From: Mucilaginibacter sp.
Lineage (GTDB): Bacteria; Bacteroidota; Bacteroidia; Sphingobacteriales; Sphingobacteriaceae
Direction of reading: 5' to 3'
Assembly: GCF_039207105.1 (NCBI RefSeq)
Contig: NZ_JBCECK010000012.1
Coordinates: forward strand, 2,632 to 66,631
DNA: 64,000 nucleotides
Each line of letters begins with the position of its first letter. The first letter of the stretch is position 1. A model generated the notes under the pieces. That model made no database searches. It was not told the DNA's origin and saw only the letters and a list, made by a program, of their open reading frames with translations. The position numbers and the translations under genes were made by a program. Below are positions 6,801-7,312 of this stretch, piece by piece.

Positions 6801-7219
6801 TCAACTACGGTACCGGTAATGGTTACATCGGCTTTTGTGGTAACAGGTTTAATATTGGCAATTTGCGCTACAATTATGGTTTTATCCTGTATGCTGTAGC
6901 TTAAATTTTGGGCGGTTAAAATGTTATCAAGTACCTCTTTAAGCGGTTTATCCTTTACATCAATATTTACCGGCGATAAGCGATCCAGCATATCGGCGTT
7001 ATAAATAAAATTATAATCGGTTTGCTTATGCATGATGTTAAAAACATCTTCAAAAGTGGCCGATTTGATATGGATGGTAACGTTTTGAGCACGGGTTATG
7101 GCCGATGCCTGAAACACGCTTATTATGAGTAATGCGAAAATGAATTTCATAATAATCAGAATTTTTAAAAAATACAGAGCGGGTGGCCTGTATTGAAATA
7201 CGGAGTTATCTGTGTACAT
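3827..7219 (-). CDS. susC: SusC/RagA TonB-dependent transporter with N-terminal STN signalling domain
   Basis: STN-like N-terminus, carboxypeptidase-like domain, [48 protein letters not shown], C-terminal F. Confidence 0.95.
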   Translation of the reverse strand: [1130 protein letters not shown]

Positions 7220-7222
7220 TTG
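7192..7222 (+). promoter_or_regulatory. Antisense Bacteroidota housekeeping-type promoter overlapping the susC start codon
   Basis: Perfect -7 TACATTTG (7215-7222) containing the CAT of the susC ATG; -33-like ATTG (7192-7195) 19 nt upstream. Confidence 0.55.
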
Positions 7223-7227
7223 AATGT

Positions 7228-7312
7228 TAAGTGAATGTGTAACAAAAATTTATCTTGACATTGCTTATTAGCAACCGGGAGAGGGTGTTGGTAGCACCTT
7301 TTCCCTTGTTTA
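7228..7312 (+). ncRNA. Candidate cis-antisense sRNA (DonS-like) in the fecR-susC spacer
   Basis: Bounded by the + strand promoter and a + strand terminator; ends are approximate. Confidence 0.45.
7277..7311 (+). terminator. Antisense-strand terminator hairpin
   Basis: GGGAGAGGGTG-TTGGTAG-CACCTTTTCCC pairs fully on + using two G-U wobbles, which are A-C mismatches on -; followed by TTGTTT. Confidence 0.6.

What the first reader, a model, noticed from the sequence alone, without database searches (positions are those of the whole stretch)
7192..7312. Hidden antisense transcription unit (DonS-like sRNA) at the first fecR-susC junction
Seen: a perfect + strand -7 box (TACATTTG) is built from the susC start codon itself, with a -33-like ATTG 19 nt upstream. 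About 55 nt downstream is a hairpin that pairs fully only on + (G-U wobbles there are A-C mismatches on -), followed by U-rich sequence. Known: cis-antisense sRNAs such as B. fragilis DonS repress ECF/anti-sigma-controlled PULs in Bacteroides. Inference: an approximately 85-nt equivalent exists in this non-Bacteroides lineage, and the overlap constrains susC to begin Met-Tyr.
Basis: partly seen in the sequence, partly recalled or inferred. Interest (0 to 1): 0.7.

Follow-up and report, generated by a model that had tools for sequence, protein, structure and literature searches.

The report
DonS-like antisense RNA gene facing susC
The 114-base gap between an anti-sigma gene (fecR) and a nutrient-uptake gene (susC) very probably holds a gene for a roughly 85-base RNA read from the opposite strand. 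It is a new member of the DonS-type antisense RNAs that restrain glycan-utilisation loci in gut Bacteroides, here in a soil relative. No RNA data could be found to show that it is made.

Summary
On the + strand, TACATTTG (7215-7222) overlaps the susC ATG. A 13-bp hairpin (7277-7305) with a U-rich tail folds at -21.9 kcal/mol on +, against -12.9 on -.

One such box alone is chance: the window has 66, with 76 expected. The design recurs, though. It is found at 16-17 of 25 fecR-susC junctions in this genome and at 54 of 76 junctions from other Bacteroidota (Sphingobacteriales, Chitinophagales, Cytophagales, a Flavobacterium, a Sunxiuqinia).

The hairpins covary, and they carry 55-87 G.U pairs against 10 A.C, so the strand antisense to susC is the one under selection. 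Two orthologs at about 70% identity keep the box and all three stems.

Best reading: a sigma-A-driven, intrinsically terminated cis-antisense sRNA of about 85 nt. It is complementary to the whole susC leader, and like DonS it most likely represses susC.

Expression and repression are inferred. No RNA run holds the locus.

Novelty: a new member of a known kind. Rfam has no model for it, and the papers searched here describe these RNAs only in Bacteroides. Earlier agents of this scan noted the same design at the second junction of this window and in at least 14 other genomes.

The parts
7192..7195 (+). -33-like ATTG, 19 nt upstream of the -7 box (weak, optional element)
   Evidence: Read. TTG is kept in 2 of 3 orthologs. 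It is not enriched at this spacing across 72 units. [quoted passage not shown]
7215..7222 (+). Sigma-A (sigma-ABfr)-type -7 box TACATTTG, overlapping the susC start codon
   Evidence: GTGTACATTTG is invariant in the three orthologs. The same box is placed at 16 of 23 fecR-linked susC starts against 9 of 56 unlinked ones, and on the antisense strand of 59 of 76 junctions in other Bacteroidota against 5 on the sense strand.
7226..7312 (+). Predicted antisense sRNA, about 83-87 nt (start inferred a few nt after the box; end in the U-rich tail)
   Evidence: Folds into three hairpins at -30.5 kcal/mol, z -5.3, with 0 of 200 shuffles as good. No conserved small ORF. Both ends are inferred, not mapped.
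7226..7259 (+). 5' hairpin H1 (GUUAAG... pairs with ...CUUGAC), with two wobble pairs that exist only on +
   Evidence: Both arms lie in blocks conserved among the three orthologs. In the family at large, the 5' end pairs with the segment before the terminator at a mean of -10.5 kcal/mol on the antisense strand, against -5.9 on the sense strand and -6.5 shuffled.
7261..7274 (+). Small hairpin H2 (UUGC...GCAA)
   Evidence: Kept in both orthologs with changed stem letters (GCUU/AGC becomes GCCC/GGGC). It is palindromic, so it does not tell the strand.
7277..7312 (+). Intrinsic terminator: 13-bp stem-loop 7277-7305 plus U-rich tail 7306-7312
   Evidence: -21.9 on +, -12.9 on -. Covariation in 43 aligned homologous hairpins: 9 of 9 pairs change on both sides, score 0.553 against 0.246 shuffled, 0 of 500 shuffles as high. 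G.U against A.C is 55:10 and 87:10. Contigs of relatives carry 7279 G>A together with 7303 C>T.
3827..7219 (-). susC (STN, CarboxypepD_reg, Plug domains). It is the target gene; its ATG at 7217-7219 lies inside the antisense -7 box.
   Evidence: ATG 7219 is probably the true start: a 3-nt indel keeps the frame in an ortholog, and 72 of 78 box-linked ATGs are in frame with the ORF.
7334..8485 (-). fecR anti-sigma gene (FecR and FecR_C domains). Its stop lies 21 nt beyond the end of the antisense unit.
8714..9289 (-). ECF sigma factor gene of the module
   Evidence: Sigma70_r4_2.

Best explanation
The fecR-susC spacer carries a separate gene on the + strand for a cis-antisense small RNA of about 85 nt.

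How it is built. The housekeeping sigma factor starts transcription at a -7 box (TACATTTG) fused to the susC start codon. The RNA begins about 6-10 nt upstream of the susC ATG. It runs through the whole spacer, folds into three hairpins, and stops at an intrinsic terminator 21 nt before the fecR stop codon.

How it most likely works. The RNA is perfectly complementary to the susC leader, or to the fecR-susC intercistronic RNA. Like DonS of Bacteroides fragilis, it most likely keeps the locus down when the ECF sigma factor is not strongly activated. It could do this by pairing with the leader next to the start codon, which would block translation or provoke cleavage of the duplex. The antisense promoter sitting on the susC start may add to the effect.

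Shown here: the promoter box, the terminator, which strand is under selection, conservation and recurrence.

Inferred: that the RNA is made, its exact ends, and that it represses.
For: 1. Anatomy at the stated coordinates.
2. Recurrence in this genome: the box plus an antisense hairpin and T-tail occur at 16-17 of 25 fecR-susC junctions. The box is specific to fecR-linked susC (16 of 23 against 9 of 56).
3. Recurrence elsewhere: in 76 junctions from other Bacteroidota, antisense terminators number 62 against 12 on the sense strand, and antisense boxes 59 against 5. Both occur in the right order in 54.
4. Strand: G.U against A.C is 87:10 by strand-neutral stem scoring. The 8-nt tail is 71% T, while the 8 nt before the stem are 26% A. 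Covariation is present in 9 of 9 pairs. 84.2% of cells pair on the antisense strand against 72.6% on the sense strand.
5. Orthologs at about 70% identity keep the box unchanged and all three stems, with -26 to -28 kcal/mol on the antisense strand and -16 to -24 on the sense strand.
6. Experimental precedent: mapped PUL-associated cis-antisense RNAs of B. thetaiotaomicron are 81-140 nt, and those looked up here carry the canonical sigma-ABfr promoter. Some have Rho-independent terminators, and their starts lie upstream of, or on, the susC start codon. Some are anti-correlated with susC (PMC7366714, text and supplement).
7. The 5' part pairs only with its own leader (-36.4 kcal/mol in cis; best paralog -10.1), as expected of a dedicated cis regulator.
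Against: No transcript evidence of any kind was available; both ends are predictions.

The U-tail here (UUGUUUAAGU) is weaker than in most paralogs.

The -33 element is not conserved.

The sense (ECF) promoter and susC transcription start are unknown. It is therefore open how much of the susC mRNA overlaps the RNA, and whether the effect is RNA pairing or promoter interference.

The box overlaps a start codon and leader, so some of its conservation could serve the sense strand.

The mechanism of DonS itself is called unknown in the literature (PMC11697453).
Confidence: 0.68

Rival explanations
1. The antisense promoter and terminator are real, but the RNA is a by-product. Regulation works at the DNA level. 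RNA polymerase with sigma-A, sitting on or firing from the box at the susC start, competes or collides with the ECF-sigma polymerase that starts a few tens of bases upstream. The terminator only keeps the antisense transcript out of fecR.
For: The box is fused to the susC start codon in nearly all units. A semi-conserved GTGnAAC(C)-like sense motif, a possible ECF -35, lies about 35-45 nt upstream of the ATG, inside the transcribed antisense region. If the ECF start is close to the ATG, the two RNAs would hardly overlap.
Against: The RNA body shows constraints at the RNA level and only on the antisense strand. There is an excess of G.U. A 5' helix forms at -10.5 kcal/mol on the antisense strand against -5.9 on the sense strand. 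Internal hairpins are kept in orthologs. A mere by-product would not need these.
Confidence: 0.17
2. The box is conserved for sense-strand reasons, as the translation start context of this SusC class or as part of the ECF promoter. The hairpin with its T-tail is an insulator that stops stray antisense transcription from entering fecR and the sigma gene. No dedicated regulatory RNA exists.
For: The box overlaps the start codon and the 3-7 nt before it, a region important for initiation in Bacteroidota (PMC11697453). The -33 is not conserved. TAnnTTTG is common in this AT-rich genome.
Against: CAAATGTA is kept in members where its own ATG is out of frame (C106, C52, C7), so it is not conserved as a start codon there. 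The motif has T at -1 and -3, not the A-rich context usual before starts. Unlinked susC genes lack it. Box-to-terminator spacing is tight, with bodies of 49-136 nt and a median of 68. The body is structured on the antisense strand only.
Confidence: 0.08
3. The hairpin acts on the sense RNA, as a fecR terminator or attenuator, or as a processing or stability element between fecR and susC.
For: It lies 28 nt after the fecR stop codon. The sense strand can still form a weaker stem of -12.9 kcal/mol.
Against: On the sense strand the stem has A.C mismatches (55:10 and 87:10 in favour of the other strand). No U-tract follows it; an A-run precedes it instead. Sense terminator-like sites occur in only 12 of 76 junctions against 62 antisense.
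Confidence: 0.03
4. A chance juxtaposition of a common 8-mer and a hairpin, with no function.
For: One TAnnTTTG is expected about every 1.8 kb per strand.
Against: The recurrence, placement, orientation, covariation and ortholog conservation listed above.
Confidence: 0.02

Closest known systems
DonS of Bacteroides fragilis and the DonS family of PUL-associated cis-antisense sRNAs (Cao et al. 2016, J Bacteriol 198:2410; as described in PMC7366714, PMC9723704 and PMC11697453)
   Same: It is encoded divergently to a susC homolog of an ECF-sigma/anti-sigma-controlled locus. It is small: the family is 78-128 nt, and this one is predicted at about 85 nt. It is perfectly complementary to the susC 5' region. 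Many paralogous copies occur per genome (15 PULs in B. fragilis; about 17-20 here).
   Different: The host is a soil member of the Sphingobacteriaceae, not a gut Bacteroides. An earlier scan note names the genus as Mucilaginibacter; the nearest named relatives found here are Pedobacter, Pararcticibacter and Mucilaginibacter. Expression and repression are untested. Sequence homology to DonS could not be tested because the paper and its sequences are not held. The substrate of this locus is unknown.
BTnc009, BTnc055, BTnc077, BTnc123, BTnc249 and BTnc252: PUL-associated cis-antisense RNAs mapped by dRNA-seq in B. thetaiotaomicron (Ryan et al. 2020, PMC7366714 and its supplementary data)
   Same: They have the canonical sigma-ABfr (TAnnTTTG) promoter and are 81-140 nt long. 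Several have a Rho-independent terminator. Their start lies just upstream of, or on, the susC start codon. Expression of some of them is anti-correlated with their susC.
   Different: Those are experimentally mapped transcripts; this one is a prediction from sequence and comparison. In a sample of 29 Bacteroidales junctions only 5 show the full design, against about two thirds in this genome and in the Sphingobacteriales and Chitinophagales sample.
FopS/GibS sRNA family of Bacteroidaceae (Ruttiger et al. 2025, PMC11697453)
   Same: Sigma-ABfr promoter, a Rho-independent terminator, repression of SusC synthesis by pairing next to the start codon, and many paralogs.
   Different: FopS RNAs are mostly intergenic and act in trans through a shared seed. 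The family was deposited in Rfam, yet no Rfam model matches this locus or 26 related junctions. Here the 5' parts are locus-specific and do not cross-pair beyond shuffled controls.

Membership tests
DonS-type PUL-associated cis-antisense sRNA | Encoded on the strand opposite to susC, at the 5' end of a susC gene that follows an ECF sigma/anti-sigma pair | tested here: met
   Sigma (8714-9289), fecR (7334-8485), susC (3827-7219) and susD (1937-3811) all lie on the - strand. The unit lies on + at 7215-7312.
DonS-type PUL-associated cis-antisense sRNA | Own housekeeping (sigma-ABfr, TAnnTTTG) promoter | tested here: met
   An exact box lies at 7215-7222. It is conserved in orthologs and recurs at the same place in paralogs and in other orders. 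This is a sequence-level test only.
DonS-type PUL-associated cis-antisense sRNA | Small discrete transcript (78-128 nt; 81-140 nt in B. thetaiotaomicron), with a Rho-independent terminator in several of the mapped B. thetaiotaomicron RNAs | tested here: inconclusive
   The predicted length is 83-87 nt. The terminator is supported by folding, covariation and strand bias. No RNA data exist to confirm the ends.
DonS-type PUL-associated cis-antisense sRNA | Detected as an RNA (northern blot or RNA-seq) | not testable with these tools
   No RNA run holding the locus was listed. The runs that were laid behave like DNA contigs.
DonS-type PUL-associated cis-antisense sRNA | Represses the cognate susC/PUL | not testable with these tools
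   Needs genetics. Only the complementarity is shown: -36.4 kcal/mol for the first 28 nt against its own leader.
DonS-type PUL-associated cis-antisense sRNA | Sequence or structure homology to DonS and the BTnc RNAs | not tested
   Cao et al. 2016 is not held, and no Bacteroides sequences could be named. Indirect evidence: the same box-on-start-codon and terminator design occurs in 5 of 29 junctions from 29 Bacteroidales genomes.
FopS/GibS family (Rfam) | Match to the Rfam covariance model; shared trans-acting 5' seed | tested here: not met
   No Rfam hit at E <= 10 in 6500-8000, and none at E <= 0.1 in 26 related junction loci. No cross-pairing among paralogs beyond shuffles.
Sense-strand intrinsic terminator of fecR | Stable stem on the - strand followed by a U-tract on the - strand | tested here: not met
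   -12.9 kcal/mol with A.C mismatches, and no T-run after it on the - strand. The family-wide bias is towards the other strand.

The most novel reading that the evidence does not exclude
The antisense unit may not be a Bacteroides speciality. It may be an old, phylum-wide fourth part of one class of ECF-sigma/anti-sigma/SusC modules, the class with a long spacer and a SusC that carries an N-terminal extension before its signal peptide. In this reading its sigma-A promoter is fused to the susC start codon, so that a structured, locus-specific RNA and/or the promoter itself holds each of the dozens of paralogous loci in a default-off state until its own ECF sigma is released. That would be a general lock explaining how Bacteroidota keep many similar uptake loci silent and insulated from one another.
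Probability: 0.4. Interest if true: 0.65.

Novelty: new member of a known kind. Interest (0 to 1): 0.5.

Why it matters
DonS-type antisense RNAs are known from experiments only in gut Bacteroides, and their mechanism is still called unknown. This locus and its many relatives suggest that the same design exists in soil and water Bacteroidota: Sphingobacteriales, Chitinophagales, Cytophagales, a Flavobacterium and a Sunxiuqinia.

The design is a housekeeping promoter fused to the susC start codon, a structured RNA of 80-130 nt, and a terminator abutting the anti-sigma gene.

This has three uses. It gives annotators a simple rule for finding many unannotated sRNA genes. It offers a large natural alignment for working out which parts of the RNA matter. 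It also points to genetically tractable non-gut hosts in which the mechanism, RNA pairing or promoter interference, could be tested.

For this single locus the result is a solid but ordinary new family member.

Tried and rejected
RNA evidence. Two searches for public runs listed no RNA holder. Four runs were laid, and all gave only contigs. The one labelled RNA-Seq behaves like DNA and shows no informative ends. This says nothing about expression.

Rfam. No family matches the locus, 20 paralogous junctions, or 6 Bacteroidales junctions.

The -33 element as support. It is not enriched at the right spacing, so it was dropped as evidence.

A cross-talking network through the conserved 5' motif. 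Trans duplexes among 16 units of this genome are no better than shuffles (mean -9.4 against -8.8 kcal/mol). For this unit the best is -10.1, against -36.4 in cis. Rejected for this locus.

A small protein on the + strand. There is only a 15-codon frame, whose ATG lies before the predicted start and is absent from orthologs, and a 29-codon TTG frame running through the terminator. Rejected.

The second ATG (7150) as the true susC start, with the box lying in a leader. This is unlikely. Box-linked ATGs are in frame in 72 of 78 cases, and an ortholog's indel is 3 nt.

The sense (ECF) promoter. Only a loose GTGnAAC(C)-like motif at variable distance was seen, with no firm call.

The dCas12f-sigmaE guide or hth-associated ncRNA reading (PMC13472631). 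Those loci lack FecR and SusCD association according to the paper, so it does not apply here.

Papers. Cao et al. 2016 could not be read.

Unpublished data. No claim here rests on the unpublished genome G002 flagged.

Full report
WHAT IS THERE

All genes from 3 to 9289 lie on the - strand. They are an ECF sigma factor (8714-9289), FecR (7334-8485), SusC with STN, CarboxypepD_reg and Plug domains (3827-7219) and SusD (1937-3811). The fecR-susC spacer is 114 nt (7220-7333).

- TACATTTG lies at 7215-7222. Its CAT is the susC ATG.
- ATTG lies 19 nt upstream of the box.
- A 13-bp stem-loop lies at 7277-7305, followed by TTGTTTAAGT.
- The stem folds at -21.9 kcal/mol on + (z -4.9) but only -12.9 on - (z -1.5). 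Three G.U pairs on + become A.C on -.

IS IT MORE THAN CHANCE?

On its own, no. TAnnTTTG occurs 66 times in the window, with 76 expected. In the genome it occurs once per about 1.8 kb per strand. The -33-like TTG is not enriched at the proper spacing in the family.

The case rests on recurrence.

In this genome I found 25 fecR-susC junctions.
- Sixteen or seventeen carry the same design in the same order and orientation. Read on the strand antisense to susC, it is a box at the susC ATG, a body of 50-90 nt, a GC-rich hairpin and a T-run next to the fecR stop.
- The box is specific to fecR-linked susC genes: 16 of 23, against 9 of 56 unlinked susC-like genes, which is about the chance rate.
- Genome-wide only 6.6% of boxes (450 of 6849) are followed by a terminator-like hairpin within 150 nt. 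Sixteen of those 450 lie antisense in fecR-susC junctions, which hold about 17 boxes in all.
- In three paralogs CAAATGTA is kept although its own ATG is out of frame, so there the motif is not conserved as a start codon.

OTHER GENOMES

Relatives of this FecR were fetched from named genomes: Pedobacter, Mucilaginibacter, Sphingobacterium, Arcticibacter, Niastella, Chitinophaga, Puia, Ferruginibacter, Agriterribacter, Dyadobacter, a Flavobacterium MAG, a Sunxiuqinia MAG and others. They gave 76 junctions, six of them with overlapping genes.
- Antisense terminators are present in 62, against 12 on the sense strand.
- Antisense boxes are present in 59, against 5 on the sense strand.
- Both occur in the right order in 54.

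In a separate sample of 29 Bacteroidales genomes only 5 junctions show the full design. Those five have a long spacer and a SusC with an N-terminal extension. Junctions with short or overlapping genes lack the design. The same holds for three junctions in this genome.

WHICH STRAND?

- Strand-neutral stem scoring of 64 hairpins gave 87 G.U against 10 A.C.
- The eight bases after the stem are 71% T, while the eight before it are 26% A.
- In a 43-sequence alignment, all 9 core pairs change on both sides. The covariation score is 0.553 against 0.246 in shuffles (0 of 500 as high), and slid controls give 0.12-0.27.
- On the same alignment 84.2% of cells pair on the antisense strand and 72.6% on the sense strand, with 55 G.U against 10 A.C.

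These sequences are related, so the shuffle counts overstate independence.

ORTHOLOGS

A search of 150 genomes of the genus found two true orthologs at about 70% identity, G050 and G089.
- GTGTACATTTG is invariant.
- The blocks GTTAAGT and CTTGAC, the two arms of a 5' hairpin, are conserved.
- The small middle hairpin and the terminator are kept with different letters.
- The antisense fold is -26 to -28 kcal/mol, against -16 to -24 on the sense strand.

Contigs of closer relatives in public DNA runs carry 7279 G>A together with 7303 C>T (G-C becomes A-U). They also carry 7299 T>C (G.U becomes G-C) and 7282 A>G (A-U becomes G.U). One change, 7281 G>C, breaks a pair.

THE PREDICTED RNA

Taking a start a few bases after the box, the 87-nt transcript 7226-7312 folds into three hairpins at -30.5 kcal/mol, z -5.3.

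Family-wide, the antisense consensus is AAATTTCA-TACATTTG-nTTtGTTTGGGTTAA. In about half the units the 5' 24 nt pair with the segment just before the terminator. The mean is -10.5 kcal/mol on the antisense strand, against -5.9 on the sense strand, -6.5 shuffled and -7.8 across loci.

No conserved small ORF exists.

THE START CODON

Of 78 box-bearing junctions, 72 have an ATG that is in frame with SusC. In 52 it begins at the last base of the box, and in 20 it lies inside the box. All 20 of the latter begin Met-Tyr, as the box forces. This locus is of the second kind.

MECHANISM

Shown: a promoter-like box, a terminator and an RNA-level structural constraint, all on the strand opposite to susC. 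They are conserved and recurrent.

Inferred: sigma-A transcribes an RNA of about 85 nt that is complementary to susC positions about -7 to -93. That is the whole leader or intercistronic region up to the zone just before the start codon, which matters for initiation in Bacteroidota (PMC11697453).

By analogy with DonS and with the mapped B. thetaiotaomicron RNAs, some of which are anti-correlated with their susC, the likeliest effect is repression in the uninduced state.

The sense start is unknown, so I cannot say whether this works by RNA pairing, by promoter interference, or by both. The 5' part does not pair with other paralogs' leaders beyond chance, so the unit looks like a dedicated cis regulator.

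COMPARISON AND NOVELTY

The closest known are the DonS family and the PUL-associated BTnc antisense RNAs of Bacteroides. The features testable in sequence are met. Expression, repression and direct homology could not be tested. It is not FopS/GibS, and Rfam 15 has no model that hits it or 26 related junctions.

The papers I could search describe such RNAs only in Bacteroides. One flavobacterial paper merely cites them as a lead.

Within this scan, earlier agents reached the same reading for the second junction of this window (40826-40948) and for at least 14 other genomes. These are unchecked notes, not independent evidence, although my own counts agree with them.

VERDICT

Observation confirmed and interpretation supported. 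This is a new member of a known kind, with no expression data.

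Noticed in passing
window 40825-40948 (+), between fecR 40957-41898 and susC 37434-40901: The second fecR-susC junction of the window has the same design: box TATTTTTG at 40826-40833, hairpin at 40912-40939, tail TTGTTTTTT. An earlier scan note covers it.
   Followed up: partly
window 7150-7219 (-), and 72 other junctions (L001-L080, own contigs): SusC proteins of this class carry a poorly conserved N-terminal extension, typically about 20-25 residues, before a classic signal peptide (...ILLIMKLT...). 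The upstream ATG is in frame in 72 of 78 cases. The extension's DNA is where the upstream half of the antisense promoter lies. Junctions without the extension mostly lack the antisense unit.
   Followed up: partly
own contigs C2 (three junctions); L131-L160: There are two classes of fecR-susC pairs. One has a long spacer (about 70-150 nt or more) and usually an antisense unit. The other has abutting or overlapping genes, with no unit and no SusC extension. The second class dominates the Bacteroidales sample.
   Followed up: partly
units in L020, L030, L035, L037, L070, own C9, C85, C106 and others: A conserved 5' motif GTTTGGGTTAA is complementary to a motif TTAACYCAAAC just before the terminator. 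They form a long-range helix with G.U pairs that exists only on the antisense strand (27 of 55 units with z < -2).
   Followed up: partly
sense strand, about 35-45 nt upstream of susC ATGs (e.g. window 7240-7250 on the - strand: TTGTTACAC): A loose GTGnAAC(C)-like motif at variable distance from the start codon may be the -35 of the ECF-dependent promoter. No matching -10 could be fixed.
   Followed up: partly
window 1348-1839 (-): A peptide methionine sulfoxide reductase (PMSR) gene directly follows susD on the same strand, an unusual partner for a SusCD pair.
   Followed up: no
L064 (record titled Ilumatobacteraceae MAG): A contig of a MAG labelled as an actinobacterium carries a typical Bacteroidota fecR-susC junction with box and terminator. 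It is probably a mis-binned contig.
   Followed up: no
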